Shown here piece by piece: positions 1,921 through 48,300 of a stretch of 60,505 bases of DNA. The DNA comes from Patescibacteria group bacterium (GTDB lineage Bacteria > Patescibacteriota > Microgenomatia > Levybacterales > UBA12049). Each line of letters starts with the position of its first letter. Positions within the stretch are counted from its first letter, which is position 1. Below the pieces are notes generated by a model. The model did no database searches and was not told the origin of the DNA. It saw nothing but the letters and a program-made list of their open reading frames with translations. Position numbers and translations under genes: made by a program. Location: NCBI GenBank assembly GCA_035457005.1, contig DATICB010000017.1, forward strand, positions 1 through 60,505, read 5' to 3'.

Positions 1921-2145
1921 GCATGGCACGTAAAGATACATCAGGACCTCAATGTGTCAACGGAATGGGTGAATGTCCGAGGGAATGTGAATTACAGCAA
2001 CTCATTGACGATTTAGGTATTGCCTATCCAGATTATGACAAGGGAGCTTTCCAGAAAAAATTAGGAGAAGTATGTCTGAGAAGACGTCTTAATGGGAGGA
2101 CACGACAACCCCGCAGACATCCATAACGTCTGGTACAATAGCCAC

Positions 2146-3606
2146 ATGATCGATATCGTTGCTGATTTACATCTACACAGTAAATATTCACGTGCTGTCA
2201 GTCCGCAAATGACAACACCTCTTATGGCACACGTTGCAGCGCAAAAAGGAATAGAACTATTGGCAACAGGAGACTGGACGCATCCGGTGTGGTTTCGTGA
2301 GCTGCAAGCAAATGTAGAAGAAGCAGAAGAAGGACTTTTCAAGCTAAAATCCCAAACCCCAAGCTCCAAATCCCAAATCCAAAATCCCAAATCACAAAAC
2401 GGTACTGATGAAAATCGAAAAGAAGCCAGATTTCTTTTGTCCACAGAGGTTGCGACGATTTTTTCGCAAAATGGAAAAGGAAGACGGATCCACCAATTAA
2501 TTTTTGTTCCGTCATTTGCAACTGCTGAAAAAGTTAATAAAGAGCTAATAAAAAGAGGCTTTAATTTGTCTTCTGATGGCAGGCCAATTATTGGTTTGTC
2601 TAGTAAAAATCTGCTCTCACTTCTTTTAGAAATTGATGAAAGATCGCTTTTAATTCCAGCCCATGCATGGACGCCGTGGTTTGGTATTTATGGACAAATG
2701 TCGGGATTTAACAGTTTGTCAGAGGCATTTGAAAACCTAGCGCCACACGTGTATGGCATTGAGACAGGACTTTCTTCCGATCCGGAAATGAATTGGCAAG
2801 TGGATGAGTTGCGGACTCGTTCGATTCTTTCTTTTTCCGATGCACATTCGCTGTCAAAAATGGGAAGAGAGGCAACAATTTTTCGATTGGAAAATTTAAG
2901 TTATGAAAATATACGTGCTGCTATCATGCAGCCGTCTCTTGTCTCTAGTCATCAGTCATTGGCTAAAGACCAAAGACAAAGAGCAAAAGACCAAGTGCTC
3001 TACACTATCGAGTTTTATCCAGAAGAGGGAAAATATCACTATTCAGGACATAGAAATTGCAAAATTACCATGACACCAGAAGAGCAAGAGAAAGCAAATA
3101 ATATGTGTCCTGTCTGCAAGAGACGACTGACCGACGGTGTCATGCGACGCGTCACTGAATTATCCCAAGAAAAACCACGAGGACTTCATAAGGCAAACAG
3201 TAAAGGTCTGGTGTGGATTGCTGATCCAAAAAATATCCATCCACCATTTGTTAAAATAGTGCCACTGCAGGAAATTATTGCCGAGGCAATAAGCAGACCT
3301 GTCACGTCACCGAAAGTAAAAGTTATTTTTGATGTACTTTGTGAAAAAGGAATATCCGAATTTCATGTACTCCTGCATCTATCGTTGGATGAAATTAGCA
3401 AGATTGTTGCAACAATTTCTTCACCAGAGTATGCAGCAAGAATTCGAGACGGTATTCAAAAAGTTCGGGAAGAACATATTATTATTCAGCCTGGATTTGA
3501 TGGGGTTTTTGGGACAGTAAAAATTTGGCAAGAAGACAATGATGTTGCAAAAGATACCGATGAAAGTTTGAATAGTGCTAAAGAACAAATAGGACTGGGA
3601 TTTTAG
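2146..3606 (+). CDS. PHP-domain endonuclease Q (EndoQ)-like protein
   Basis: Motifs seen are ADLHLHSKYSRAVS, PAHAWTPW, SFSDAHS, GKYHYSGH, the zinc ribbon CPVCKRRLTDGVMRRV, and C-terminal IIIQPGFDGVFG. The ORF track starts at 2092, but the conserved N-terminus begins at the in-frame ATG 2146. Confidence 0.7.
   Translation: MIDIVADLHLHSKYSRAVSPQMTTPLMAHVAAQKGIELLATGDWTHPVWFRELQANVEEAEEGLFKLKSQTPSSKSQIQNPKSQNGTDENRKEARFLLSTEVATIFSQNGKGRRIHQLIFVPSFATAEKVNKELIKRGFNLSSDGRPIIGLSSKNLLSLLLEIDERSLLIPAHAWTPWFGIYGQMSGFNSLSEAFENLAPHVYGIETGLSSDPEMNWQVDELRTRSILSFSDAHSLSKMGREATIFRLENLSYENIRAAIMQPSLVSSHQSLAKDQRQRAKDQVLYTIEFYPEEGKYHYSGHRNCKITMTPEEQEKANNMCPVCKRRLTDGVMRRVTELSQEKPRGLHKANSKGLVWIADPKNIHPPFVKIVPLQEIIAEAISRPVTSPKVKVIFDVLCEKGISEFHVLLHLSLDEISKIVATISSPEYAARIRDGIQKVREEHIIIQPGFDGVFGTVKIWQEDNDVAKDTDESLNSAKEQIGLGF
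2347..2395 (+). repeat. 7-nt-periodic array of the AAATCCC family, in frame in the EndoQ-like gene
   Basis: The units are aaatccc aaacccc aagctcc aaatccc aaatcca aaatccc aaatcac. They encode KSQTPSSKSQIQNPKSQ. Confidence 0.9.
2963..2997 (+). repeat. 7-nt-periodic array of the CAAAGAG/CTAAAGA family, in frame in the EndoQ-like gene
   Basis: The units are ctaaaga ccaaaga caaagag caaaaga ccaagtg. They encode AKDQRQRAKDQ. The unit is related to the ligase AGCAAAG repeat. Confidence 0.8.
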
Positions 3607-3680
3607 TCTAGCGCTTCATATCTGCTTCACATTGTTTTCCTTTCTTCTTTTTTCTATCCTCTTGCCAGAGGAAATGTAAT

Positions 3681-3830
3681 ATGACATTTACAGAAAAAGC
3701 AAAAATTGTTTTGGTACAAAACAATACAGATGTCCCGCAGCCGCCTTATGTCCCTAATGGATGGAATCCATGGGAGAGGCCTTACGGTCCAAAAGATGTT
3801 GTGGGAATAACAGATTCGAAAAGGAGGTAA
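3681..3830 (+). CDS. micro-protein A (49 aa, Pro/Trp-rich), first gene of a four-ORF operon
   Basis: The ORF runs from ATG 3681 to TAA 3828-3830. Translation is MTFTEKAKIVLVQNNTDVPQPPYVPNGWNPWERPYGPKDVVGITDSKRR. It is below the 60-aa cut-off of the ORF track. Its 3' end carries the AAGGAGG RBS of the next ORF. Confidence 0.45.
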   Translation: MTFTEKAKIVLVQNNTDVPQPPYVPNGWNPWERPYGPKDVVGITDSKRR

Positions 3831-3835
3831 GCAAT

Positions 3836-4003
3836 ATGGTATTTGCAATAAAAGAAGCGACAAATAAACAACCAGCACCACGAGCTAAATTAGCCGAGTA
3901 TTATCCGAGAAGAGGATGTGAATGTTCTTGCTTACCTGAACCGCGGTGTCGACCAGGGGACTGGCTGTGCGAAAAGGGAATACGGGAATCTAAAAGATCT
4001 TGA
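3836..4003 (+). CDS. micro-protein B (55 aa, 5 Cys, Pro/Arg-rich)
   Basis: A consensus RBS (aaaaggaggt) lies 7 nt upstream of ATG 3836. Translation is MVFAIKEATNKQPAPRAKLAEYYPRRGCECSCLPEPRCRPGDWLCEKGIRESKRS. Confidence 0.55.
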   Translation: MVFAIKEATNKQPAPRAKLAEYYPRRGCECSCLPEPRCRPGDWLCEKGIRESKRS

Positions 4004-4023
4004 ACAAAAGGAGGTGAATAGAT

Positions 4024-4203
4024 ATGAGTTTTAATCAAAAACGAGAAGGCGGAATGACACAAGGACCAGTACGAGCGGTGTATAACATGGGGGATATACG
4101 ACGAGGATACGAGCCGGAAATGGGTTATCCAGATACTTGTTGTCCTTGCCGTCCATGTGGGCCAAGACGGAGGCCAGAGGTTCCTTATGACTATCCGTTA
4201 TGA
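4024..4203 (+). CDS. micro-protein C (59 aa, CCPCRPC motif)
   Basis: The RBS aaaggaggtg lies 7 nt upstream of ATG 4024. Translation is MSFNQKREGGMTQGPVRAVYNMGDIRRGYEPEMGYPDTCCPCRPCGPRRRPEVPYDYPL. Confidence 0.55.
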   Translation: MSFNQKREGGMTQGPVRAVYNMGDIRRGYEPEMGYPDTCCPCRPCGPRRRPEVPYDYPL

Positions 4204-4361
4204 CTAACGTATTGGAAGCTGTAAAGGTTAGGTGTGTAGCATCAAGTCCTTTGAGGGTTAGATTTGCAAGCTGTGGTGGATGCAATCGTGATTGCGCACC
4301 TGAGCCACCCCGTCTACCAGAAGATTCATCATGGTTAGAACCAGGAGAAATTGTTTTGTAA
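4200..4361 (+). CDS. micro-protein D (53 aa, Cys-rich), ATGA-coupled to C
   Basis: ATG 4200-4202 overlaps the TGA stop of ORF C at 4201-4203. Translation is MTNVLEAVKVRCVASSPLRVRFASCGGCNRDCAPEPPRLPEDSSWLEPGEIVL. It shares a C-x-PEP motif with B. Confidence 0.45.
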   Translation: MTNVLEAVKVRCVASSPLRVRFASCGGCNRDCAPEPPRLPEDSSWLEPGEIVL

Positions 4362-4518
4362 CGATTTGTTGATGAGATATACATTTTTCTCCTCTTGCTT
4401 TTTTAAGTCGTTTCCTTTCATACTGAAAGAAGTAGTGTTCTGATAAAAATTATTATTGGAGTCGTTAGGTCTTCAATAATTGTTTGCACACAGAACAAAT
4501 GAAAGGTGGTGAATAAAA

Positions 4519-4956
4519 ATGGCAAAAAGTAAAAATTGGCAAGACATGATGGAAGAATGGTTTGGTAAGTTGCCAAGTCTTCCAAAAGGTGGACGAGACG
4601 TATTGGCTCAGGTTGCTCCATGGTTTGCATTAATTTTTGGTGTGTTGGGAGTTTTGGCTGGTCTTGGTGGTTTAGGGATTCTCTCAGTTTTATCACCAAT
4701 GATGCTTCTTGGATCAGGACTTGGGACAACAGCAAATACACTCCTGAGTGTTGCAATAGCACTTGTTGGATCAGTTCTTATGCTTGTAGCATTCCCTGGT
4801 CTGAAAAAGCGAAAAATGCAAGGATGGAACTTACTCTTCTGGAGCGAAGCTGTATCATTTGTGTCGTCATTGGTTGCATTCTCATTTGTGGGTGGAGTCA
4901 TTGGCGCACTTATTGGATTTTATCTGTTATACCAGATTAAGTCTTATTACAAATGA
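4519..4956 (+). CDS. small integral membrane protein (3-4 TM helices), function unknown
   Basis: 145-aa ORF with hydrophobic segments such as APWFALIFGVLGVLAGLGGLGIL. The RBS aaaggtggtg lies upstream. Confidence 0.7.
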   Translation: MAKSKNWQDMMEEWFGKLPSLPKGGRDVLAQVAPWFALIFGVLGVLAGLGGLGILSVLSPMMLLGSGLGTTANTLLSVAIALVGSVLMLVAFPGLKKRKMQGWNLLFWSEAVSFVSSLVAFSFVGGVIGALIGFYLLYQIKSYYK

Positions 4957-5048: not shown

Positions 5049-5156
5049 ATGAAACTACTTGTTGGCCTTGTCCTCCTGATTTTACCGCTTGCCTTTCCAA
5101 TTCTGTTCGAATACGGCTCACGGGGCAATCTGAGGAGGATCTCGCATTATCTATGA
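5049..5156 (+). CDS. 35-aa hydrophobic upstream ORF, ATGA-coupled to pth
   Basis: A TATAAT box sits 6 nt before ATG 5049. Translation is MKLLVGLVLLILPLAFPILFEYGSRGNLRRISHYL. Its stop (TGA 5154-5156) overlaps the pth ATG (5153-5155). The first 7 codons resemble the pth start. Confidence 0.35.
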   Translation: MKLLVGLVLLILPLAFPILFEYGSRGNLRRISHYL

Positions 5157-15554: not shown

Positions 15555-15566
15555 TCCTTTTTTTTT

Positions 15567-15639
15567 GGGCCGGTAGCTTAGTTGGTAGAGCGTCGCTTTT
15601 GCATAGCGAAGGTCGAGAGTTCGAATCTCTTCCGGTCCA
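15567..15639 (+). tRNA. tRNA-Ala (anticodon UGC)
   Basis: Hand-folded cloverleaf: acceptor GGGCCGG/CCGGTCC with the G3:U70 alanine identity pair, anticodon loop TTTGCAT, T-loop TTCGAAT, discriminator A. CCA is not encoded exactly; the sequence reads ACCCA. Confidence 0.9.
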
Positions 15640-15727
15640 CCCATTCGTCGCTTTGCTCCTCAGGGCAAGCTTCGAATTAACGGTTGGACAAGGAGAAATG
15701 AGAAGTTTATCCCGAAGAAATGAGGGA

Positions 15728-15744
15728 AATCTCTTCCGGTCCAC
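15728..15744 (+). repeat. 17-nt perfect duplicate of the tRNA-Ala 3' end
   Basis: aatctcttccggtccac occurs at 15624-15640 and again at 15728-15744. The ~35 nt following each copy are also similar. Confidence 0.9.
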
Positions 15745-16007
15745 TCATTTCGTTCAGGCTTGTTTTCTTGGACAAGCTCCCTAGTTTAGAGGGGGCTTTT
15801 CCAAGTTTAAAAGCTTGGGCTCTTTAATCCTCCTACGCTCTTTGAGCTACGGAAGGATTGAAAAGTTAAATCACTTTCTAAGGTAATGATTGGGCTTGCC
15901 CTCTCGAAGCTTTAGCGAAGTGGGGCTCTTTAACAAGTGAAGAGAAATCTCGTATTCGCGAGCATACAAAAGGTCGTCATCCGACCTTTCGCGTATACGG
16001 GAATTTA

Positions 16008-19330
<3,323 letters not shown>

Positions 19331-19440
19331 CTGATCCGTTTAAAATCGGGTTTTTCTCTTCCTTGTTAAAGAGCGTTAATTGGTCGCTAGCAGCTGGTCA
19401 TCAGTTGCTGGCAAGCGTTCATTAATAACTAAAAATTAAT

Positions 19441-19468
19441 AAAGACTATTAGCTAAAGACTAATAGCC
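19441..19468 (+). repeat. 7-nt-periodic array upstream of 5S
   Basis: The units are aaagact attagct aaagact aatagcc. Confidence 0.7.
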
Positions 19469-19486
19469 AGTTTTGTGTTGAAGCTT

Positions 19487-19597
19487 CGGTCTCTGGAGCG
19501 TAGTGGCACCACCTCTTCCCATTCCGAACAGAGTCGTGAAACACTTCAGCGTTGACGATACTAGATCTTTACGTTCTGGGACAATAGATCGAGGCCG
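19487..19597 (+). rRNA. rrf: 5S rRNA
   Basis: Conserved CCCATTCCGAAC block. Helix I is CGGTCTC/GAGGCCG. An extended precursor stem is TTTTGTGTTGAAG/CTTGAACACAAAA. Confidence 0.85.
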
Positions 19598-19622
19598 GGA
19601 CTTGAACACAAAACGTAAATTA

Positions 19623-32993: not shown

Positions 32994-32996
32994 TCT

Positions 32997-33067
32997 GGGC
33001 CATTAGCATAGTGGTAGTGCGCTACATTCGCATTGTAGATACAGCGGTCCGATTCCGCTATGGTCCA
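32997..33067 (+). tRNA. tRNA-Ala (anticodon CGC) with an atypical T-loop
   Basis: Acceptor GGGCCAT/ATGGTCC with G3:U70. Anticodon loop TTCGCAT. T-stem AGCGG/CCGCT, but the T-loop is TCCGATT, with C at the usual U55 position. Confidence 0.7.
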
Positions 33068-33071
33068 CCCA

Positions 33072-33144
33072 GGGCCGGTAGCTTAGTTGGTAGAGCGCCT
33101 CCATGGCATGGAGGAGGTCGAGAGTTCAAGTCTCTTCCGGTCCA
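33072..33144 (+). tRNA. tRNA-Ala (anticodon GGC)
   Basis: Acceptor GGGCCGG/CCGGTCC with G3:U70. Anticodon loop ATGGCAT. T-loop TTCAAGT. It lies 4 nt after the previous tRNA. Confidence 0.9.
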
Positions 33145-33184
33145 CAATTTAGCCTCAGAGTTATCAGTCAGTACGCATTGTCAG

Positions 33185-36336: not shown

Positions 36337-39300
36337 TTAGTTGACGATTAACCAATTAAATGTTGTGTTGGTTGTCTGCTGAAGAGGAATACCAACAGTA
36401 AAGGATGTTTTATCAACTTGGCGAATTAAGTATGGTGTTATTGTGCTTTGCCCAACAGGCGTGATGTAAATAAGTGATTTGCTCGTTACTAGTTTGTTGT
36501 CGATTGTTATTTCTGTTTGGTGTGCTTTCACATCTGCGGTGCCTGCCGATCCTGTTGCAACAAGTTCGGTATTGCTCACAGCCAGAGCTGGCTCTGCTAC
36601 TTGCAGATTCAATTTGCCAATCGTTGCCGCGCCAGACGCAATGACATTACCAAGCTGGTCAATCGTAAAGATGCCAGAGCCAGACGCATTTTGAACAGAA
36701 AGATTGGATGTTGCTAATGCTGCACCTGTTGCCGTTGGATTGTTGCCTAATTTTACCGTAAGGTTACGGTCATTGCTGATTGGCGAGATAATATTTGCAG
36801 CCAAGGTTTTACTAAAGACTGCATTGCCATTGACTGTGAGGTTGCCATCAGTGTCGATTGCCAAAAGCCCTCCTTCAAAATTCACGCCTCCTTGTCGAAG
36901 TGGCTGAATATCAAATGTTGCGCCCAAGACGTTGACTCCATTGTCGGCAAGAATTAACTGACTGCCAATTGCGAGCTGTCCAGTAATAGTAGTATCAGAA
37001 AGAGTGGTAGTACCAAGACTCATAAGACCTTGTTCAAACATACCAGTTGTTGCGTCTAAATTCGGGACATATGCCAAGAACCCAGAATATGAGGCTAAAT
37101 TAGTGTAGCCAAGGTATGGATTTAGCAGTCCAGAATTGGTACTGCTACTACCACCAAGTCCTGTAGCAATATTTTCACCAGTTGGTGCTCCACTTGGTGT
37201 AGCAAAGTATATATTGGTCACATTGGTAATATTTTGAGCAGAAAGTGTACTCACCACTGCTTGCAGTCCTGCAATGGTATTAGCCTCAATTCTGTTGGCG
37301 TGGAGGGTCCCGGATACGGTAGCATCGCCATTTACTGCGAGATTTTGCGAGGTAAGAGTGCCAGAAAATGTTGCATTACCAATATTGTCAATTGTAGCCA
37401 CGGCAGATCCACTTGCGCCATTTCTTACTTCTATCCTAGAGTTTCCTAGGCTCAAAGCAATGCTATTATCTTGCCCAAGAGGCGAGACAATGCCGGTGTG
37501 AAGCTGATCAATAGATGCAATAGGCGAGTTAACAGTTCCATTATTGAATTGGCTCAAGCTTCCATTGCTGATTGCTGTCTGGACAACGCCAATAATGTAA
37601 TCGGACAGACTTTGTCCAGCGATAGTGACATTGGCAGTGGCAATAGACAGGGAATTGGTGATAGTCTGTTGTGCTTGCAAGGATCCAACTCTCAAGTTTC
37701 CAATCACTGCTTCAGACAATGCGGCAATTTGATGAATTGGATTTCCGAATATGTCAGAAAGCATGTAATAGTGGGGAATAGTAAAGTCAGCGGAGACTGT
37801 TGCATTTTGATTCATGATAATATCTCCGGTACCGCTGAGGTCCAGATTAGTAAGTTTGCCAGAAAGCATTGCAAGCTGGCTATTTGCAGACGTTGTGGCA
37901 ACATCAACTTTGGTATTTAAATCCTGAACTGCCTTGACAATAAGTGGAGTAATTCTTCCATAATCAACACCCCATGGATCTTGTGGATTCACATCTCCAT
38001 ATCTGTCGTCTGGGTTTGTCGGCACGCTGACTGCGTTGGGAAAGACATTATACAGCCATTGAGCAATAAACCCCGTCTGCAGAGGGCCTGTTGGCTCAGT
38101 TTTGTAATGGAAGTTGACAACAGGAATCTGTAAGAGCTGATCTAGTCCCATATTGGTTGGAGCAATATCTGTCTTAAGACGGATATCAGAGGTATTGGTA
38201 TAGGTGACACCTCCACCGTTTCCCTGAACAGTACCCAAGGATGTGCCGTCTCCATCAAGGTATTGTAAAAAAAAGGCAGTATCACTGGTATTTGCTCCTG
38301 CTTGAATTCTAATCCCATCACCCGAATTAGAAACGGCATCATTATGGACAACAAGCGCAAAGTTACCGCCAGTGATACCACTGGTAACAGTCATCTGCCC
38401 GGTTGCTCCCCAAATAACGTCATAATTGCCATAGGTACGATCATACAAACCCAGTTGTCCAGACGTTCCAGCGGCGTCATTGTACCATTCATACTGATGT
38501 CCTCCCCCTGGAGTTCCATCCATAATAATTATGCCTCCTGCACTGCTATGTCCTACACGAATATTTCCTGAATTAACATCAAGGGTCGCGTTTGGGGTTG
38601 TTGTCCCAATGCCTACATTGCCACCACCTGGGTTAAGAGAAATGTTGCCAGTAGTACCTAATGTTGCATTAGGAAAGGCTTCTATAACTAGTGGACCATT
38701 ATTATTTGCAAATATAGCCCCAAGAGAGGTACCGGCCCTTTTCCATGTCGTTAGAAATACACCGTCATTTACCGTGTCTATATTTAGCGCACTTAGGGAG
38801 TTATTTGCTGCTTGGTTACTCACAATATCAAGTGTTGATGTTGGATTGGCTGTTCCGATTCCAACTCTCCCAAAGGTGTTATTCACATAGAGTGTTGGGT
38901 CTACCTGGGATGGGTCTTGCTCGGTATCAACAGACACCACTGGCTCTGGGTTGGTGAATGAGCGGACATATATGGTATTAGCAGAATTGGTGGTTGCATA
39001 GCCATTGTGGGGAGTACCAGTTGGGTTTGCCAAATCGGTTACTTCTGCTGCGCTGAGTGCTGCATCATAAAAGTGTACTTCATCAATATATCCTCTAAAA
39101 AAGTGGGCATTTGATCCTGCAGATTGTCCAATCTTAAGAGATTGGGAGGAAGAAGAACCTATTGTGGAAGAGCCTCCCGTACAGGTAGAGACTTGCACGC
39201 CGTTTACATAGGCGATTGCAGATGTTCCGGATTTAGTCACGGTGACATGCTGCCACACGTCGGGTGTAAGGATAATGCCCCCATTTGACCATTTATCTGT

Positions 39301-42300
39301 TCCTGCTCCGATTGTGTTACATCGATAGGAAGCTCCATCACTCCAGCCAAAGAAATAGGTATTACCTGTTCCAGTTGATTCTAGCATATACCCACCACTT
39401 GTATTGATATTATGTTTACTAAAAATATCTGCGCTGGTAGGCTGTACTGCTCCTGGCTTGACCCATAAATCAGCTGACATGGCATTACTAAAATTAATAC
39501 TGCTGCTATTGGCAATACTGATACTGTCCCCAACCCCATCAAAATAGACACCATTGTTAAACATGCCATTAGCAATAATTCCGTTGGAAAGTGTCCCTGT
39601 ATTGCCATTACCCGATGTATCACTTTCTGTTGTGCCGGAGGTAATATCCATGCTGTATGCCGCCTGAAGCCCACTAATGGAGCGAACAAATGTATTCGCG
39701 GCAGATGAAACACTGGTGGACAGAGACAAATTGCCATAGTAGATATAGATATTTTTCTTTTCTCCTGGTGGGAGCTGGGGGACTTTTACCCAGAAAATAG
39801 TTGATGACGTATTGCAGGTACCAGGCTCCATCCAGTAATTAAGATTGGTTGTACCATCAGAATCAGTAAAGCGCACGCCAGTACAATCATTTCTCATCTT
39901 GCCAACAGAGATAGGAGCCGTTGTATTGATTGATACTTTCACTTGGTAGTCTGCATTAGCAGAACTAGATGCTGACTGGGTATTATCTACGGTAATGCGA
40001 GCACGATATGATTCACCATAACTTGATGCTATCCAGGAAGTTGGATCATAGAGCCCTGACTTAATATCTCCAGCAACAGTGAGCAGGGCAGAAGTAGAGG
40101 CAACAGATGTTGTCCCAAGCGCTACATTGCCAGTTGTCTGTTGCACATAAAAGCTGGGGAGCATTTGGGTCACAGTATTTTGCTCTTGGCCTAATGATGC
40201 AATAGTTGGCTCTGTTGATACATATGCTCGTGCTTCTTCTGTATTGGCATTACTTGCAATAGTATAGCCATAATTTTGACCCCCATTGGAATACAAATCA
40301 GTAATCTGAGATGAAGATAAGGCGATATTATAGACACGGGGCTCATCTAGGGTGCCGGTAAAGAAACCTGCGCGTGCACCTGCGTTGTAGGGGGGTGCTG
40401 CGCCAATATCCAAGACGCCTGTTGGCGCACTGCCAACAGTGATCGTTGCCGGTGTACCTGTTGAGGCACCATCAACATAGAGCGTCATGGTTGTTCCGGA
40501 AATGGTCATGACAGCGTAGTGCCAATTACCATCAGCATAGGTTGTGGCAGTACTATCAACTATATAGTCTGTTGGGTTATTAAAGTACTCTGCTTCTACT
40601 TTTCCACTTGTTAGGAAGTTAAGACCAAAAAGGGTGCGAGTCCCAATTTGGGTATCTTTTCTAATAAGAGTTTCCTTAGAGCTTGGGTTAGATGATTTCT
40701 TAAACCAAATAGCAACTGATAATGGTTGGGTGATACGCAGGTTGCTACTGTCATTGATTTCTACATAGTCGCTATTGCCATCAAATGTTCGAGCATTACC
40801 AAAAATACCGGTTGCAACAGTTGTACCCGATTCAGAAGCGACGTTATTGCCATTCCCTGAGAAATCATTCATTGGCATGTAGGTTGGCTCATCAAATCTC
40901 CAGGCACCCTGTACTCCAGAAATTTCCCGGACAAACGTACTTGTGGAAGAGGATGCTGCACTTGCGCCCGCGTTGCCATAGTACATATACATCATTTTGT
41001 TGGGACCTGGAATAAGGGGTACCTTTACCCAGAACGTCGTTGCAGTGGTATTGCAGGAATTGGGCTCAATCCAGTAATTAAGGTTAGTCGACCCATCTGA
41101 GTCGGTAAATCGTACATCATTACAACTTGAAAGCACCTTTCCAGAAGAAACAAGACCTGTGGTATCCATAACAACTCGCACCTGGTAATTGATAAGCTGC
41201 TGCCCATAGGTATTGTTGATTGAAATTTGTCTTCTGTAGCTATAGCCATCCACACCCCAATTTGTGGCATCTTTGCCAACACGTAAATCTCCATAGACAT
41301 CAAGCTTGTATTGAGCAGAGGTGGTGCCGATACCAGCAGAGCCATTAATATCCATGGCCTGTCCGGATGCTGCAGGATCGATAAAGTAATTGGTGTTATC
41401 CAAATCCTGGAAAGACCTTGCACGCAAGATACCCGAGTTGGTGAGTTGAAGCTCAGTTGCTCCGGAGGCAGAAGCAGTGAGGATATCTGCTACATTGTTC
41501 TGTTGATTGACTATGAGTGCAGAATTCCCTAAGCCGTCTTTCTCAATATCCAAAGGCCCAAGGGGGGAAGTAGTGCCAATGCCAACATTGCCATTACTGA
41601 AGTAATGAGGGCCAGATCCTGTGACATGCAATCCGGTTGCGCTTATGGTAAATGCGGAAGCATCTCCTGTTGCGAAATAATTATTATTAATGCCAAATTT
41701 AATTTGTCCTCCCGATGGGGCGTTCAAAAAGGTATAGGTTCCGTCACCGAGTAAAGAGTAATTATTACACGTGAGATTATTTGTCCCAAAAGAGATACCA
41801 CTATATCCGCCCCCACAATTTGGAGATCCAATATAGGTATATGAGCTAGATTCTCCAAGGACTTGTAACTGTTCTTGAGGACTGTTTGTTCCAATGCCAA
41901 TATTCCCGGAACTTGCTATATATAGTGCAGGATTTCCTTCACCGCTATTGCCACCAACAGAATTATAAAACCCAAGGGTTGCATTGTTGAGTAAGTCAAC
42001 TTTTGTATTTGCCGCTGTGAAGGAAAGGTTGCCGGAAGTGGTTGCTGTCCCTGCATAGGTTCCAGAACCAAAAATCTGGAATTTTGCAGAGCTTGTGGCT
42101 AAACCGCCAACTGCCAAATCATTCGTAAGATTGGCAGGAGCTAAAACTCCAAGGCTGCTCAACTGCCAGAACCCCGCGATACCGCCACTGCTTGGAGTAA
42201 CAATTTGTCTCACATAGAGCGTATCCCATTCTTGTCCTCCTGCTGTCGGATCAGATCCCAAATTGTACGTATCGTTTGTTTTTGGAATAAGACTTGATGC

Positions 42301-45300
42301 AAAAAATCCAGTTGCGGTAATGTCATCGCTAGTTGCATCGCCAAGATTTACTTTTCCATTCAAAGTTGTTGTTCCTGTCACTGTCAGTGCATTATTCACT
42401 GTTGTCGTGCCGCTTGTTCCGCCTATGTTTACATTTGTTGTCAAGGCATTATTAGCGAGATTAAGTGTTGTTGCAGCAGACCCAAAGTTAATGGTTGTTG
42501 CTGTGGTATTGAGAAGATTGACACTTGTCTGATTGGTTGCAATGGTTGCTGCATTTAAATTGATAGTTGATCCTGTGCCACCGTTGAGCGCAGTAAGTGT
42601 AATATTTCCTGTTTGACTGTCACCGATGGTAAGCCCTTGATTATTTCGTGTTGCGATAACATTTGCCGTATCGCCGTTGAACGTCAGTGTTCCGGTTGTT
42701 GTCGCATTGCCAGTATTGGCAAACACCTGGAATTTAGCAGATGCTGTACCAGTGCCACCAATTGCCAAATCATTCCAGTTATTCGTTGGATACAAGACAT
42801 TACTTGCTAAGGTCCAGTAGCCACCAACACCGCCTGTTGCAGGAAGATAGACATTACTTGCTGTGACTGCGCCAGTCAGGTAAAGATTTTTCCAAGACAG
42901 CGCAACTGAGCCAAGGTCATCTGTATTGGTTATGCTTGGTATGATATCGGTGCTGACACGGCCAGTAAAACCAATCGTATTGCCTGTACCGCTTCCCAAG
43001 ACGACATTGCCCCTAATGGTATTTGTTCCTGCTGCATTACCAATACCAATGCCGCCTGTTGCACCAGATCCGATATTGATATTAGTTGCGTTAGAATCAA
43101 AAAGACTTGCTGTACCGGCAGTTGTTGTGATATTGCCACCATTCACAGCAACATTTCCTGAGGTAGTAAAATTGCCTGTTTGGGTTATGTCGCCGTTGTT
43201 AGCAATAGAGAGTACAGTTCCAAGACCAGAATCTCCTCCAACAGATGTTTTGACATTTAAGACGCTGCCGTTGAGTAATGCAACCTGCGTTGTGGTTCCT
43301 CTGAAAGAAAGTCCCGCAGAAGAGGTTGCCGTTCCTGCGGTGTTGACGCCAAGTGTTGTTGCAAATACTTGCCATGGTGTTGCAGACCCTGTTGCATTGC
43401 CACCAACTGCCAAATCATTCCATGCATTCACAGGAGACAATACATTGTTAGTCAGCTGCCAGAATCCTGAGACGCCTCCTGAAACAGGGGAGATGAAAGT
43501 GTTTGCATAGACTGTGCCATAGTAGTGAGTTGCAGAGCCAAGATTGATTGATCCATTGCCTGTTGGAACAAGATCGGTTGCCAAAGACCCAGTGGTTGTA
43601 ATCGTGTTGGTTGAGCTTGTTCCCAAAGTGACATCACCTTTCAAATTAATTGGTGTATTCGATGCGCCAATATTCAATGCTGTGGTTGCACCTGCGCCAA
43701 AGTTAATTGTTGTTGCTGTGCTGTTTAATAAATTAAAAGTGGTCTGATTGGTTGAGAATGTGCCGCCATTGTCTGCGATATTGCCTGTGGTAGTGAGTGC
43801 ATTGTTGACAGTTGTTGTTCCAGAGCTATTGCCAATATTTAAGCTCGTTGCTGTTGGGAAGGCAGTAAAGGATGTTCCACTGCTGTCGAGCGTTGTTCCA
43901 TTTATTGTGACTATGCCGTTGCCATTTTGTGGTTTTAAGGTAATATTGCCTGTTGTGTCGCCACCAATGGTAAGGCCTGCGTTTCGTGCTGTTTGGAGTG
44001 AGCCTGTGGCTGTTAGGTAGGTGGCATTGCCATTTAACCCGGAGCTTACCGATGCAACTGGTGTTCCGGATCCTGTCATATTGAGTACTGCAAATTTTGC
44101 AGAAGTAGTTGCCGAGCCACCAATGAAGAAATCAAACGTTTCATTGATTGGGTAGAGCGCGCCATTTGTCATAGTCCACCAATTACTTGCTGCAGAAGAG
44201 CAATCACTCCAGCTTGGTGCAGATGATGCATTAGAAATAAGACATTGGCCACCTGACCCAACAGATGTGAATGCGTATCGTGTTCCATTTGAGTAGGCGA
44301 CACTTCCCGCAGAGCCTAATGTTGTTGCATTGGTGCCGCCATTAGCAATTGGCAAGATAGAACTACCAACATCTGCTGTTAAATCAATTGCGTTAAATGT
44401 TGGTGCGCCTGCACCGTTGCCGCGAAGGAAAGTATGTGCTGCGCCTTGTGCTGTTTCGGCAACAGTGCCATTGGTATCAGATAAGTACAAAATACCATCT
44501 GCTGTGGTATATTTCTTAGCGATAAGTGTGCCATCATTTTGAATGGTAAATTTGGTGACACCTGACGCCGATGCAGTAAAGATGTCGCCGTTGGGTCCTT
44601 GCTTATTGACGACCAGTGCCGAATTTCCGCCTGCGTTTGGCTGCACAGTAATATTCCCTAAACCGCTATTTTGTCCAAGAATAATATTACCTGTTCCAGA
44701 AGACAAAAGCGTCAGGTCTGCATTGCTGGTAGTCTGAATTGTTGAGGAAGAACCGTTGCCAAGCGTTACGGTCGTGCCGTTCACTGTGAAATTTCCTCCG
44801 GTTGTTGTTAGTCCTGTTCCCGTTGTAAAGCTTGATGCACCGGCAAAGGTAACGCTGCTTCCTGAGATTCCATTCAGCGGACTCAGCGTTATATTTCCTG
44901 TGGTTGTTCCACCAATGGTTAATCCCTGGTTTCTTGTGGTCTGAATAAGACTGCCTGTACCATCAAACGTCAGTGTTCCTGCTGTTGTTGCATTGCCAGT
45001 ATTTCCAAACACCTGGAATTTAGCACTACTTGTTGCTGTCCCGCCAATTGCCAGATCATCAGCAATATTACTTGGAGAGATTATTCCTGAATTCCTCTGC
45101 CAGAAACCGTCATACTGTGCTGTTGCACTTAAAATAAGCCCATTTGCGTAGACATTTCTCCAGGCGAGCGCATTCGAACCAAGATCATATAGATTATTTG
45201 CATCAGGACCGACACTGCCTGCAAGTTGCAGTCTAAATGATCCTGGATTAGTTGTGCCAATGCCAACATTATTGCCGTTAAGAATAATGTTGCCGGTTTG

Positions 45301-48300
45301 ATTATCACCAAGAGTCAGCCCTTGATTATTCCTTGCAGCAATAAGGTTGGTTGCTGCAGTACCGCTGGTAAACGTCAGTGTTCCTGCTGTTGTTGCATTA
45401 CCAGAATTGGCGAAAATTTGAAATTTAGCGCTACCGGTTGCTGTGCCACCAATTGCGACATCGTCGGTTATATTGAGCGGTGCCAAAACACCTAAATTTC
45501 TCTGCCATGTTTGTGTAATTGGCTGTCCATTCTGGTAAATATTATTCGCATAAATATTATTCCACTGAAGAGCTGCCGAGCCTAAGTCATAGGTATTGGT
45601 TGTGTAGGGGAGAATATTGGACGAAACATTGCTGTTAAAACTAATATTGCCTGTAGTGTTGCCGCCCAATGTAAGCGTTTCATTTCTCACTGTCTGAATC
45701 GTTCCGTCTGCTGCAAAATACATGCCAGTGCCATTCAATCCTGATGATACCGATGCAGTTGGTGTGCCATTAGCGATATTGAGTACTGCAAATTTAGCAG
45801 ATGTTGTACTGGTTGCTCCTACTAATACATCGTTTGTTATATTTGTTGGAGATAATGCGCCATTGTTTAACTGCCAGAATCCAAGATACTGTGAAGAAGC
45901 CGAGCCAAAGAGATTGGTAATATAGGCACTACCATAGTAATTGGCTGGAGATCCTAAATTAATACTTGTTGATTGGGGAATAAGACTTCCTGAGAAAACG
46001 CCAACTGGGTTAATGGTATTGGCGCTCGTTGCTCCCAAAACTGCATTGTTGTTGGCAGTGAAAACACCTGTTGCTGTGAGTGCGTTATTCACTGTTGTCG
46101 TGCCGCTTGTTCCGCCTATGTTTACATTTGTTGTCAAGGCATTATTAGCGAGATTGAGTGTTGTTGCTGCACTGCCAAAGTTAATTGTTGTTGCTGTGGT
46201 ATTGAGTAAATTGACACTTGTCTGATTGGTTGCCAGTGTTGCTGCATTTAAATTGATAGTTGATCCTGTGCCACCGTTTAAGGGTTGGAGCGTTATATTT
46301 CCGGTCGTATTTCCACCAATGGTGAGTCCTTGATTTCTCACTGTCTGAATTGTTCCGTCTGCTGCAAAATACATGCCAGTTCCGCTTAATCCTGAAGAAA
46401 CAGATGCTGTTGGATTTCCAGAGCCAGTCATGTTGAGGACAGCAAATTTAGCAGTTGTTGTTGCGGTGCCGCCAGCTAAGATGTCGTCAGTAATATTAGC
46501 AGGGGAGAGTGTGCCAAGATTTCTTTGCCAGAATCCTGCAGTATTGCCGGATGTAATAATGTTTTTGACATACAAATTATTCCACTCCAAACTTGCAGAG
46601 CCTAAATTATAAGTGTCAGCATCTGCGGGAATAAGATCGGAGTTGATAAATCCACTGACCGTGAGCGATCCTGTCCCATTGTTTGGTTTTAAGATAATAC
46701 CACCTGTCGTGTCTCCACCAAGAGTAAGTGGTTGGTTGCTCGTTGTTTGGATTTGAGACCCTGTTCCGGTAAACGTCAGTGTTCCGGCAGTTGTTGCATT
46801 GCCAGTATTCCCAAAGACTTGGAATTTAGCACTATTGGTAGACGTTCCGCCAATTGCAAAATCATTTGTTATATTTGTTGGGCTTAAGACGCCGCTGTTT
46901 AATTGCCAGAATCCATCATACTGTGCATTCGGACCTAAAAGAAGACCATTTGCATAGATATTTCTCCAGCGAAGTGGTGTTGTTCCATCTCCCAAATCAA
47001 AAGTATTATCAGTTGTTGGGACAAGACTGCTACCAAATCTTCCTGTTGTGACAATAGTATCAGCCGTTGCATTACCCAAATTAACATCTCCATTAAGATT
47101 TGTTGTATTATTTGCTGTGAAAATACCTGTTGCTGTGAGTGCGCTATTCACTGTTGTTGTGCCACCAGTCACGCCAAATCCTAATGTTGTCGCATTGGCG
47201 GTAAATGCATTAAATGTTGATGCAGTTGTTTGAAGAGCAGAACCATTCACAGTAACTGTTCCATTACCACTGTTTGGACTTAAAGTAATACCACCTGTCG
47301 TGTCTCCACCAAGAGTAAGTGGTTGGTTACTCGTTGTTTGGATTTGAGACCCTGTTCCGGTAAAGGTTAAATTGCCAGCAGTTGTTGCGTTACCAGAATT
47401 GGCGAAGACCTGGAATTTCGCAGTTGCTGTTGCTGTCCCGCCAATTGCTAAATCGTCTGCAATATTCGCAGGGGAGACAACGCCGAGATTCCTCTGCCAG
47501 AATCCAACCGTGGTTCCTGTTGAGATAACATTTTTTACATAGATGTTGTTCCACTCCAAACTTGCAGAGCCAAGATCATACGTATCTGTTGTTCGTGGGC
47601 CAACATTGCCTGCCACTTCGAGAGCAAAATCGCTCGTTGTTGTTGTGCCAATGCCAACATTTCCTGTTGAATCAACATAGAGTCCTGTTGTTCCTTTCGG
47701 TGATAATTGAACTGATCCTGTTGTTGCAGAGCCTATGGTGAGCGGGCGATTGTTGGTGGTTGCAATGACGCCATTACTATTCAGTGTTATATTCCCAGAA
47801 ATGGATGCAGTTGGTGTGCCAGACCCTGGAGCATTATTTAAGAACGAAAAATTAGCAGAAGAACTACTCGTACCGCCAAACAAAACATCTAATGTTGTAT
47901 TAACAGGATAGAGAATTCCATTCCCACTATCCAATGTCCAATAATTTGTTGCACCGGCAGCGGTTGAACAACTTGTCCAGCTTGGCGCACCAGATCCTGC
48001 AGAGACAAGACATTGATTTGTCGAGCCTACCGCCGTGAATGCATAATTGGTGCCGTTGGAATAGGCAACACTTCCGGCTAACCCAATGGTGTTGGTGTTC
48101 GTACCGCCATTGGCAATTGGCAAGATGCCAGTAACTTCTGAAGCTAGGTTGACACTGCTTGATGATAAAACGCCTCCTGTTGCGTGGACAACGCCTGTCC
48201 CAAGGCCACCAATAGTGACTGTTCCTGCTCCATTGAGTGGGTTCAATGTGATGTTTCCTGTTGTAGTTCCGCCAATTGTCAGTCCTTGATTTTTCGTTGT

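What the first reader, a model, noticed from the sequence alone, without database searches (positions are those of the whole stretch)
3681..4361. Unannotated operon of four translationally coupled micro-ORFs, three of them Cys/Pro/Arg-rich
All four ORFs fall below the 60-aa cut-off of the ORF track. A (3681-3830, 49 aa) is Pro/Trp-rich. B (3836-4003, 55 aa) has the pattern CECSC..C..C. C (4024-4203, 59 aa) has CCPCRPC. D (4200-4361, 53 aa) has C..CGGCNRDC. B and C have consensus AAGGAGG sites 7 nt from their ATGs. The RBS of B lies inside the end of A. D starts with an ATGA overlap on the stop of C. B and D share a C-x-PEP motif. Coupled small Cys-rich peptides suggest secreted disulfide-rich or metal-binding peptides, RiPP-like precursors, or subunits of a small complex. 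No modifying enzyme is adjacent. The 117-aa antisense ORF at 4031-4384 offered by the track is a less parsimonious reading.
Basis: seen in the sequence. Interest (0 to 1): 0.7.

Follow-up and report, generated by a model that had tools for sequence, protein, structure and literature searches.

The report
Orphan cassette of four tandem micro-genes
A 730-base insertion found in only one species of ultra-small soil bacterium (Patescibacteria) carries four back-to-back genes for 49-59-residue cysteine/proline/arginine-rich peptides that look real but match nothing known, so their function remains a guess.

Summary
Four ATG-ORFs (A 3681-3830, B 3836-4003, C 4024-4203, D 4200-4361) tile the + strand. 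A, B and C have Shine-Dalgarno sites. C and D share an ATGA overlap. No dinucleotide shuffle out of 5000 reproduces the chain.

Comparative evidence favours + strand coding:
- Three independent Logan assemblies carry the locus.
- A 13-nt indel falls exactly on the C/D junction. It keeps both ORFs and breaks the antisense 117-aa ORF.
- One strain (L015) has divergent paralogues C2 and D2, each with its own SD. They differ only by 3n indels, and pN/pS is 0.44 and 0.65.

The block is an accessory insertion. In about 25 syntenic relatives the flanking genes are 50-270 nt apart, or hold unrelated cargo.

The peptides are orphans. I found no homologue among 1.84 billion representative proteins, nor in Pfam, NCBIfam, PHROGs, PADLOC, PDB or Rfam.

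They have no signal peptide or membrane segment, so the "secreted" reading is unsupported. No maturase is detectable in the 60-kb contig. Codon statistics for B, C and D are not host-like, and AlphaFold finds no fold.

Verdict: probably real, strain-variable small-protein genes of unknown function. A RiPP-like or metal-binding role stays speculative. Interest is modest.

The parts
3632..3660 (+). Promoter-like site upstream of A: TTGTTT (3632-3637), 17-nt spacer, TATCCT (3655-3660). It looks like a diverged copy of the neighbour gene's promoter.
   Evidence: Read from the sequence. It resembles the conserved TTGACT/TTGCTT-17/18-CATACT promoter seen upstream of the dn145 homologue in relatives. 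It is below the threshold of the consensus scan. Inferred, not shown.
3651..3665 (.). Left copy of an imperfect 15-nt direct repeat (TTTCTATCCTCTTGC) that brackets the inserted block.
   Evidence: the repeat finder family D7: 13 of 15 identical, 733 nt spacing. Relatives with an empty site have one copy-like sequence. It could be a chance match in T/C-rich DNA.
3667..3672 (+). Shine-Dalgarno-like AGAGGA of ORF A, 8 nt before the ATG.
   Evidence: Sequence.
3681..3830 (+). ORF A, 49 aa. Pro/aromatic-rich, no Cys, pI 9.3.
   Evidence: Called as a gene in three Logan assemblies and present in NCBI nr. It is the only one of the four with a host-like coding score (+0.019 per nt). There is no diverged homologue, so no evolutionary test was possible.
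3821..3827 (+). AAGGAGG Shine-Dalgarno of B, inside the last codons of A.
   Evidence: Sequence. One of only three start-associated AGGAGG sites in the window.
3836..4003 (+). ORF B, 55 aa, with CxCxC-x5-C-x6-C and pI 9.2. It starts 5 nt after A's stop.
   Evidence: Called as a gene in L001, L015 and L016. Weak similarity to D. Coding score is not host-like (-0.109 per nt).
4008..4017 (+). AAGGAGGTGA Shine-Dalgarno of C.
   Evidence: Sequence.
4024..4203 (+). ORF C, 59 aa. The N-terminal ~27 residues and a CCPC motif are conserved, and the C-terminus is variable.
   Evidence: Paralogue C2 in L015 (1240-1392) has 25 of 48 aligned residues identical (phmmer E 9e-6), only 3n indels, pN/pS 0.44, and differences by codon position of 17/16/26. 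Allele C' in L015 has a different C-terminus.
4139..4337 (.). Tract replaced in strain L015 by a divergent, longer cassette (C-terminus of C', C2, D2). The flanks are identical.
4185..4197 (.). 13 nt (TTATGACTATCCG), present here and absent in L001 and L016. The indel lies between 9-nt direct repeats TTATGACTA at the C/D junction.
   Evidence: Alignment. C becomes 56 aa and D is unchanged. The antisense ORF is frameshifted.
4200..4361 (+). ORF D, 53 aa, with C-x12-CxxCxxxC, PEP and a WLEPGEIVL end. Its ATG overlaps C's TGA (ATGA).
   Evidence: Homologue D2 in L015 (1447-1623) has 27 of 52 residues identical (phmmer E 1e-7) and its own SD. MAFFT on nucleotides gives 6- and 9-nt gaps. pN/pS is 0.65 and the sense frame has the best BLOSUM score. 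The stop is kept in L001 although 5 of the last 9 nt differ.
4031..4384 (-). Antisense 117-aa ORF. Judged not to be a gene, but a by-product of D having no Tyr, His or Gln codons.
   Evidence: It is broken in L001 and L016, not conserved outside the mirror of D, and has no homologues. Pfam, NCBIfam, PHROGs and PADLOC are empty.
4384..4398 (.). Right copy of the 15-nt direct repeat (TTTTTCTCCTCTTGC).
4395..4424 (+). Promoter of the downstream membrane-protein gene dn145 (4519-4956): TTGCTT, 18-nt spacer, CATACT. It is conserved in relatives and marks the right edge of the insertion.
   Evidence: Comparison of intergenic spacers.

Best explanation
**What it is.** Positions 3681-4361 hold a genuine + strand cassette of four small-protein genes: A 49 aa, B 55 aa, C 59 aa and D 53 aa. 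The cassette is an accessory insertion of about 730 nt, specific to one Patescibacteria (Paceibacteria-like) species. It sits in a recombination hot spot between a conserved PHP/TIGR00375-type gene (2092-3606) and a conserved membrane-protein gene (4519-4956).

**How it is probably expressed (inferred).**
- It is transcribed as one mRNA, either from a diverged copy of the neighbour's promoter (3632-3660) or by read-through from the upstream gene. No terminator is predicted on either side.
- A, B and C each start from their own strong SD. This is unusual in a genome whose genes mostly lack SDs.
- B starts 5 nt after A's stop.
- D is translated by termination-reinitiation at the ATGA overlap.

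**How it evolves (shown).** C and D are members of two small paralogous families (C/C'/C2 and D/D2, possibly B). Strains reshuffle these by recombination and duplication.

**What the peptides are like (shown).** They are hydrophilic and mostly basic, with no signal peptide or membrane segment.

**Most likely role (guess, about 0.2-0.25 on its own).**
- They may be polymorphic Cys-bearing peptides with a conserved N-terminal recognition part and a variable C-terminal part. Such peptides would serve as substrates or ligands of a partner encoded elsewhere, either a RiPP-like maturase or exporter, or a metal or thiol partner.
- Otherwise they are young orphan proteins with a weak or strain-specific function.
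For: **Real locus.** Four independent assemblies carry it.

**Gene calls.** A gene caller called A, B, C and D on the + strand in L001 and L016.

**Beyond chance.** The arrangement is beyond chance: 0 of 5000 shuffles reproduce it. Two of the three start-associated AGGAGG sites on the two strands of the window (121 kb in all) belong to B and C.

**Frame-aware evolution.**
- The 13-nt indel falls exactly at the C/D junction.
- Nucleotide alignment of D against D2 gives only 6- and 9-nt gaps.
- C/C2 and D/D2 homology is significant: E 9e-6 and 1e-7, and shuffle p below 5e-4.
- pN/pS is 0.44 and 0.65, and the sense frame gives the best amino-acid score of the six frames.
- C2 and D2 have their own GGGGGTGA / GGGGGTTGA sites before the ATG.
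- D's stop codon is kept in L001 despite 5 of 9 changed bases.

**Insertion status.** In most of the ~25 syntenic loci that carry both flanking genes (genome and metagenome collections) these lie 50-270 nt apart; four hold unrelated cargo there instead, and none carries the block.

**Mosaic strain variation.**
Against: - A host-trained 3-periodic Markov model scores B, C and D like spurious ORFs: -0.11, -0.07 and -0.05 per nt, against 0.06 +/- 0.04 for real genes. The antisense frame opposite D scores higher than D.
- There are no homologues outside this species among 1.84 billion representatives, nor in the genome, viral, phage or plasmid collections.
- AlphaFold finds no fold. Mean pLDDT is 37 on a single-sequence concatenation, which is a weak test.
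- pN/pS values of 0.44-0.65 on single pairs show only mild constraint, and the alignments were guided by the sense frame.
- A and B have no diverged homologue, so their coding status rests on SDs, ORF length and gene calls.
- Cys positions are only partly conserved.
- No partner enzyme or exporter is present in 60 kb.
- There is no expression evidence.
Confidence: 0.6

Rival explanations
1. The ORFs are non-functional or proto-gene ORFs. On this reading a young piece of inserted or duplicated spacer DNA happens to be open and SD-rich. The ORFs may be translated but have no selected function, and the locus is simply a fast-evolving junk hot spot.
For: - The peptides are orphans in 1.84 billion proteins.
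- Coding statistics for B, C and D are not host-like.
- No fold is predicted.
- Constraint is weak (pN/pS 0.44-0.65).
- The spacer holds different cargo in different relatives and is mosaic between strains.
- The leaders of C and C2 resemble the dn145 leader, which would fit local duplication.
Against: - Every cistron, including the diverged paralogues C2 and D2, keeps an ATG with a strong SD in a genome that rarely uses SDs.
- All indels inside the ORFs are multiples of three, and the single non-3n indel sits at a gene junction.
- Amino-acid conservation is highest in the sense frames.
Confidence: 0.22
2. The real gene is the antisense 117-aa ORF (4384 to 4031 on the - strand), transcribed divergently from dn145, and the + strand ORFs are its shadow.
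For: - It has an ATG with GGAG upstream and a sigma-70-like site at 4476-4449.
- It is open in the window and in L015, where a gene caller chose it.
- Its frame opposite D has the better host-like score.
Against: - In L001 and L016 the start is followed at once by TAA, the promoter-like stretch is deleted, and the 13-nt indel shifts the frame.
- Window and L015 versions align only opposite D and are unrelated in the C-terminal half.
- There are no homologues.
- It covers only C and D and explains neither A and B nor the SDs.
- Its openness follows from D lacking Tyr, His and Gln codons (sequence reasoning).
Confidence: 0.04
3. The block is a non-coding element: either a structured RNA or long 5' leader that regulates dn145, or a small non-autonomous mobile element, with fortuitous ORFs.
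For: - GC content is higher (45-53%) than in the flanking spacers (29-35%).
- Folding z-scores are about -2.1 and -2.4.
- A 15-nt imperfect direct repeat brackets the block, like a target-site duplication.
- It is an insertion relative to the relatives.
Against: - No Rfam family matches, even at E up to 10.
- z-scores near -2 on both strands are unremarkable.
- There is no second copy in the window, in the related loci, or in the phage and plasmid collections.
- There are no terminal inverted repeats of note.
- dn145 keeps its own conserved promoter downstream of the block.
- The 3n-indel and amino-acid conservation pattern is that of coding sequence.
Confidence: 0.08
4. The block is the decayed remnant of one longer gene, broken by three -1 frameshifts (frames 0, 2, 1, 0).
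For: - The four ORFs follow each other in successively shifted frames with no long gaps.
- Other relatives carry a full-length gene at this position.
Against: - There is no similarity to the alpha/beta-hydrolase-like gene of L009 and L013, or to anything else.
- Each fragment begins with an ATG behind an SD.
- Paralogues C2 and D2 exist as separate small genes with their own SDs.
- The frames are identical in four assemblies.
Confidence: 0.03

Closest known systems
Tandem arrays of RiPP or bacteriocin precursor genes (for example prochlorosin ProcA arrays, or SCIFF/ranthipeptide precursors). This comparison rests on general knowledge.
   Same: - Several small paralogous ORFs lie head to tail.
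- In the C family the N-terminal ~27 residues are conserved and the Cys-bearing C-terminus is variable.
- Strain-level cassette replacement and duplication occur.
   Different: - No maturase, protease or exporter is present in the 60-kb contig.
- No known leader or precursor family matches in Pfam or NCBIfam.
- A has no Cys.
- The GG in C lies at residues 9-10, too early for a double-glycine leader.
- Membership is not shown.
Bacterial metallothioneins and other small Cys-cluster metal-binding proteins
   Same: - The size is 50-60 aa.
- The peptides are hydrophilic and cytoplasmic.
- Cys residues are clustered: CxCxC, CCPC, CxxCxxxC.
   Different: - There are only 4-5 Cys per peptide (about 8%).
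- No Pfam or NCBIfam family of any kind matches these peptides, metallothionein models included.
- Cys positions are not conserved between D and D2 (only CxxC is), and C' loses one Cys.
- No His ligands are present.
Lineage-specific orphan small ORFs in variable intergenic hot spots (proto-genes)
   Same: - The block is restricted to one species.
- It has no homologues.
- Codon statistics are atypical.
- Disorder is predicted.
- It sits in a spacer that carries different cargo in relatives.
   Different: - Four ORFs are coupled with consistently strong SDs.
- Two internally paralogous families keep their reading frame through divergence.

Membership tests
Protein-coding small genes (generic test of + strand coding) | ATG start behind a ribosome-binding site, more often than chance | tested here: met
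   A, B and C have SD 5-mers. The SD-led chain is 3, against at most 2 in 5000 shuffles. Two of the three start-associated AGGAGG sites in the window belong to B and C.
Protein-coding small genes (generic test of + strand coding) | Reading frame preserved in diverged relatives (3n indels, no stops, pN/pS below 1) | tested here: met
   Met for C and D only. Indels against C2 and D2 are all multiples of three, pN/pS is 0.44 and 0.65, and the 13-nt indel sits at the gene junction. A and B could not be tested because they are identical in all strains.
Protein-coding small genes (generic test of + strand coding) | Host-like codon and hexamer statistics | tested here: not met
   A scores +0.019 per nt. 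B, C and D score -0.109, -0.072 and -0.045, within the range of spurious ORFs. This is expected for a foreign or compositionally odd insert, so it is not decisive.
RiPP precursor peptides | Maturase, protease or exporter genes nearby | tested here: not met
   Pfam on 30 of the contig's long ORFs (not the 5052-aa ORF at 36337-51495) finds only housekeeping and other ordinary families: ligase, PHP, Pth, ZIP, DsbA, TrxR, S1, RadA, HK/RR, Rho, LeuRS and others. The rest of the genome could not be examined.
RiPP precursor peptides | Match to a known precursor or leader family (NHLP, Nif11, SCIFF, lanthipeptide and others) | tested here: not met
   No Pfam or NCBIfam hit at E up to 1.
RiPP precursor peptides | Conserved leader plus hypervariable core among paralogues | tested here: inconclusive
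   The C family fits: residues 1-27 and CCPC are conserved and the tail is variable. The D family is conserved at both ends. There are only 2-3 sequences per family.
Sec-secreted disulfide-rich peptides | N-terminal signal peptide with a hydrophobic core | tested here: not met
   The highest 15-residue Kyte-Doolittle mean is 0.0 to 1.03, and GRAVY is -0.07 to -1.1. No dedicated signal-peptide predictor was available.
Bacterial metallothionein | Family profile match and conserved Cys/His ligand set | tested here: not met
   No Pfam hit. Cys positions vary between paralogues.
PEP-CTERM sorting domain (considered because of the shared PEP motif) | PEP motif followed by a transmembrane helix and a basic cluster at the C-terminus | tested here: not met
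   No hydrophobic stretch follows PEP in B or D. No NCBIfam hit.
Known toxin-antitoxin or anti-phage defence small proteins | Profile match | tested here: not met
   PADLOC, Pfam and PHROGs give nothing below E 0.1.
Known structured RNA family | Covariance-model match | tested here: not met
   Rfam 15 shows no match at gathering score and only noise at E up to 10.

The most novel reading that the evidence does not exclude
A to D may be founding members of new, Patescibacteria-restricted families of ribosomally made Cys/Pro/Arg-rich peptides. On this reading their variable C-terminal parts are diversified between strains by cassette recombination. The peptides would be matured, exported or metal-loaded by partners encoded elsewhere. 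They might serve as polymorphic effectors or immunity factors in the episymbiotic lifestyle.
Probability: 0.15. Interest if true: 0.6.

Novelty: new variant of a known kind. Interest (0 to 1): 0.3.

Why it matters
If the four peptides are made, they add two or more new small-protein families to a phylum whose genomes are tiny and whose accessory genes are mostly unexplained. They also show a within-species hypervariable peptide cassette, which usually marks conflict or interaction functions. The locus is a clean case in which standard annotation (60-aa cut-offs, longest-ORF preference) either misses the genes or picks the antisense shadow ORF. As it stands, though, this is one more species-restricted orphan cassette without expression or functional evidence. 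Such cassettes are common in Patescibacteria.

Tried and rejected
- **Word-indexed protein search with the concatenated A+B+C+D.** It returned nothing, not even the identical Logan peptides that are in the collection. That search failed its positive control, so I ignored it. The exhaustive HMMER search did recover the self hits.
- **Remnant of the gene that occupies this spacer in L009 and L013.** tblastn found nothing.
- **Repeated or mobile element.** There is no second copy in the window or in the loci held at that point (L001-L014), and nothing in the phage or plasmid collections.
- **Relatives by degenerate patterns.** Genome and viral collections gave only unconfirmed pattern matches.
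- **Synteny-guided search.** The metagenome contigs gave 20 more loci, none with the peptides.
- **Antisense ORF as a family.** Only its own L015 counterpart was found.
- **Known-family and structure searches.** Rfam, Pfam, NCBIfam, PHROGs, PADLOC and PDB sequence searches were all empty.
- **AlphaFold2 on the concatenation.** pLDDT was 37, which is uninformative.
- **Wobble-position periodicity to separate D from the antisense ORF.** Rejected as a test, because the third codon positions of the two frames coincide (worked out from coordinates).
- **Exact-sequence look-ups of pth and the upstream gene to find more alleles.** Not on record.
- **Literature searches.** Nothing relevant was found.
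Full report
**Context**

The window is a whole 60,505-nt contig. The size match comes from the record for peptide A. It comes from a Patescibacteria/Paceibacteria-like MAG: the nearest syntenic loci are titled Candidatus Paceibacterota or Patescibacteria group.

- GC content is about 40%.
- The contig carries housekeeping genes: ATP-dependent DNA ligase, a PHP/TIGR00375-type protein, Pth, a ZIP transporter, a DsbA-like protein, thioredoxin reductase, 23S and 5S rRNA, S1, RadA, a histidine kinase and response regulator, Rho, LeuRS and others.
- The finding lies in a 912-nt gap between the PHP-type gene (2092-3606, +) and a 145-aa membrane-protein gene, called 'dn145' here (4519-4956, +). Pth follows at 5153.

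**Observation**

The four ORFs, their lengths and their Cys motifs are as described.

- AAGGAGG sits at 3821-3827, inside the end of A, and at 4008-4014. These are 8 and 9 nt before the ATGs of B and C.
- A has AGAGGA 8 nt before its ATG.
- C and D overlap in ATGA.
- D lacks a well-placed SD in the window.

The arrangement is not chance.

- No dinucleotide shuffle out of 5000 yields four consecutive ATG-ORFs of at least 45 aa.
- SD-led chains reach at most 2 in shuffles, against 3 observed.
- Only three AGGAGG sites on the two strands of the window (121 kb in all) precede an ATG that opens at least 45 codons. Two of them are B and C.
- This stands out because most long genes here have no SD at all. 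Many have a TAnnnT box just upstream of the ATG, which gives them a leaderless look.

**Independent assemblies and strain variation**

Exact-sequence look-ups found three Logan contigs from different runs with the same locus. In L001 and L016 the gene caller called four + strand genes of 49, 55, 56 and 53 aa.

L001 and L016 differ from the window in three ways:

- A 13-nt deletion (window 4185-4197) between two TTATGACTA repeats, exactly at the C/D junction. C then ends three residues earlier, D is untouched, and AGAGG moves to 6 nt before D's ATG.
- A substituted tract that begins in D's last three codons. D's stop stays at the same place (GTT TTG TAA becomes AGA TTA TAG).
- A 40-nt deletion further downstream.

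L015 is identical in the flanks, in A, in B and in the first 38 codons of C. From 4139 to 4337 it carries a different, longer cassette:

- C' with another C-terminus.
- An extra 50-aa gene C2 (L015 1240-1392).
- A 58-aa D2 (L015 1447-1623).
- Both C2 and D2 have GGGGGTGA-type SDs.

**Coding test**

| Pair | Identical residues | phmmer E (5,041 six-frame ORFs) | Shuffle p | pN/pS | Differences by codon position |
|---|---|---|---|---|---|
| C / C2 | 25 of 48 | 9e-6 | below 5e-4 | 0.44 | 17 / 16 / 26 |
| D / D2 | 27 of 52 | 1e-7 | below 5e-4 | 0.65 | 24 / 16 / 20 |

- A nucleotide-level MAFFT alignment, which is blind to frame, places 6- and 9-nt gaps inside D.
- Protein-guided alignments need only 3n gaps.
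- In both pairs the sense frame has the highest BLOSUM score of the six frames, 135-136 against at most 83.

Caveats:

- These are single pairs.
- The alignments were guided by the sense frame.
- A and B have no diverged counterpart, so they rest on SDs, length and gene calls only.

**The antisense ORF**

- ORF 4031-4384 shares third codon positions with D, so periodicity cannot separate the two.
- It stays open simply because D has no Tyr, His or Gln codons.
- It is not conserved. In L001 and L016 its ATG is followed by TAA, the promoter-like site at 4476-4449 is deleted, and the 13-nt indel changes its frame.
- The window and L015 versions align only opposite D.
- A profile search finds only the L015 copy.

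**Insertion status**

About 25 syntenic loci carry both flanking genes; in total 33 related loci were fetched from species-representative genomes and JGI metagenomes.

- The two flanking genes are usually 50-270 nt apart.
- L009, L013 and L025 carry an unrelated 344-349-aa alpha/beta-hydrolase-like gene there.
- L031 carries two minus-strand membrane ORFs.
- None of these loci has any match to A, B, C or D.
- The empty sites show a conserved dn145 promoter (TTGACT/TTGCTT, 17-18 nt, CATACT). The window has it at 4395-4424, just right of the block. A diverged look-alike (TTGTTT, 17 nt, TATCCT at 3632-3660) lies just left of A.
- An imperfect 15-nt direct repeat (3651-3665 and 4384-4398) brackets the block. 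I treat the left promoter and the repeat as inferences.
- No terminator-like site is found on either strand in 3400-4700.

**What the peptides are**

No homologue or family match was found:

- An exhaustive phmmer run of the concatenated peptides against 1.84 billion representatives returned only the strain variants, plus one repetitive junk protein.
- Pfam, NCBIfam, PHROGs, PADLOC and PDB sequences gave nothing.
- Rfam gave nothing for the DNA.
- Folding z-scores are about -2 on both strands.

Their properties:

- They are hydrophilic, with GRAVY from -0.07 to -1.1.
- A, B and C are basic (pI 8.4-9.3) and D is acidic (pI 5.1).
- There is no hydrophobic segment, so Sec secretion is unsupported.
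- AlphaFold2 on a single-sequence concatenation gives pLDDT 37.
- A host-trained periodic Markov model scores A like a weak real gene. It scores B, C and D like spurious ORFs. That fits foreign origin or odd composition, but it counts against the coding reading.

**Interpretation**

I put about 0.75 on C and D, and somewhat less on A and B, being translated genes. I put 0.6 on the full statement that this is a polycistronic, SD-driven, partly coupled cassette of orphan small-protein genes in a recombination hot spot.

The function is not determined.

- The architecture of the C family (conserved N-terminus and CCPC, variable tail), the tandem paralogy and the cassette replacement between otherwise identical strains resemble precursor-peptide or polymorphic-effector loci.
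- Every membership test for known RiPP, metallothionein, PEP-CTERM, toxin-antitoxin or defence families failed.
- No partner gene is present in 60 kb.
- The main rival is that these are young ORFs with little or no function.

**Verdict**

This is a well-supported observation of modest interest. The peptide families are new at the sequence level. However, the phenomenon of species-restricted orphan small genes in a variable spacer of a Patescibacteria genome is common, and nothing yet ties it to a mechanism.

Noticed in passing
window 15566-19600: The 23S rRNA match spans 3308 nt against a 2925-nt model, so about 380 nt are extra. Low-GC dips lie near 17450-17700 and 18650-18900. There is no Rfam intron hit and no ORF of 90 aa or more with a family match. 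The unit is tRNA-Ala(TGC)-23S-5S, with no 16S anywhere in the contig, so the 16S is unlinked.
   Followed up: partly
window, starts of the 31 long ORFs: Most genes lack a Shine-Dalgarno site, and many have a TAnnnT box 5-10 nt before the ATG, which suggests mainly leaderless mRNAs. dn145 (AAAGGTGGTGA) and the micro-ORFs are exceptions.
   Followed up: partly
window 36337-51495 (-): A single 5052-aa ORF. It was not analysed.
   Followed up: no
window 32996-33145: Two tRNA-Ala genes (CGC and GGC anticodons) lie directly in tandem. A third tRNA-Ala (TGC) lies before the 23S.
   Followed up: no
L009 3870-4904; L013 3785-4834; L025; L031 950-1588: The same spacer between the PHP-type gene and dn145 holds other cargo in relatives. 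Three loci have an alpha/beta-hydrolase-like gene of about 345 aa. One has two minus-strand membrane ORFs (124 and 56 aa). The spacer is therefore an insertion hot spot across the clade.
   Followed up: partly
L021 ~1660-1800 and L022 (same spacer): A palindromic element of about 120 nt (GTCATTCTGAGTGAAACGAAGAATCTC ... GAGATCCTTCACTTCGTTCAGGATGAC) is inserted between the dn145 promoter and its SD. It looks like a MITE or REP element.
   Followed up: no
L015 ~1700-1790: In this strain the dn145 5' leader is replaced by a segment with two hairpins built on GTTAGAT...ATCTAAC (for example CCCCGTTAGAT..ATCTAACGGGG).
   Followed up: no
window 2871-~2930 versus L001: Most of the 23 substitutions between window and L001 in the upstream gene cluster in a tract starting at 2871 (12 of them within 2871-2929), while A, B, C, dn145 and their nearby spacers show none. 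This mosaic pattern is typical of recombination between strains.
   Followed up: no
window 2092-3606: The longest-ORF start (ATG 2092) is probably too far upstream. All relatives begin at the MIDxxADLH motif, which corresponds to ATG 2146.
   Followed up: no
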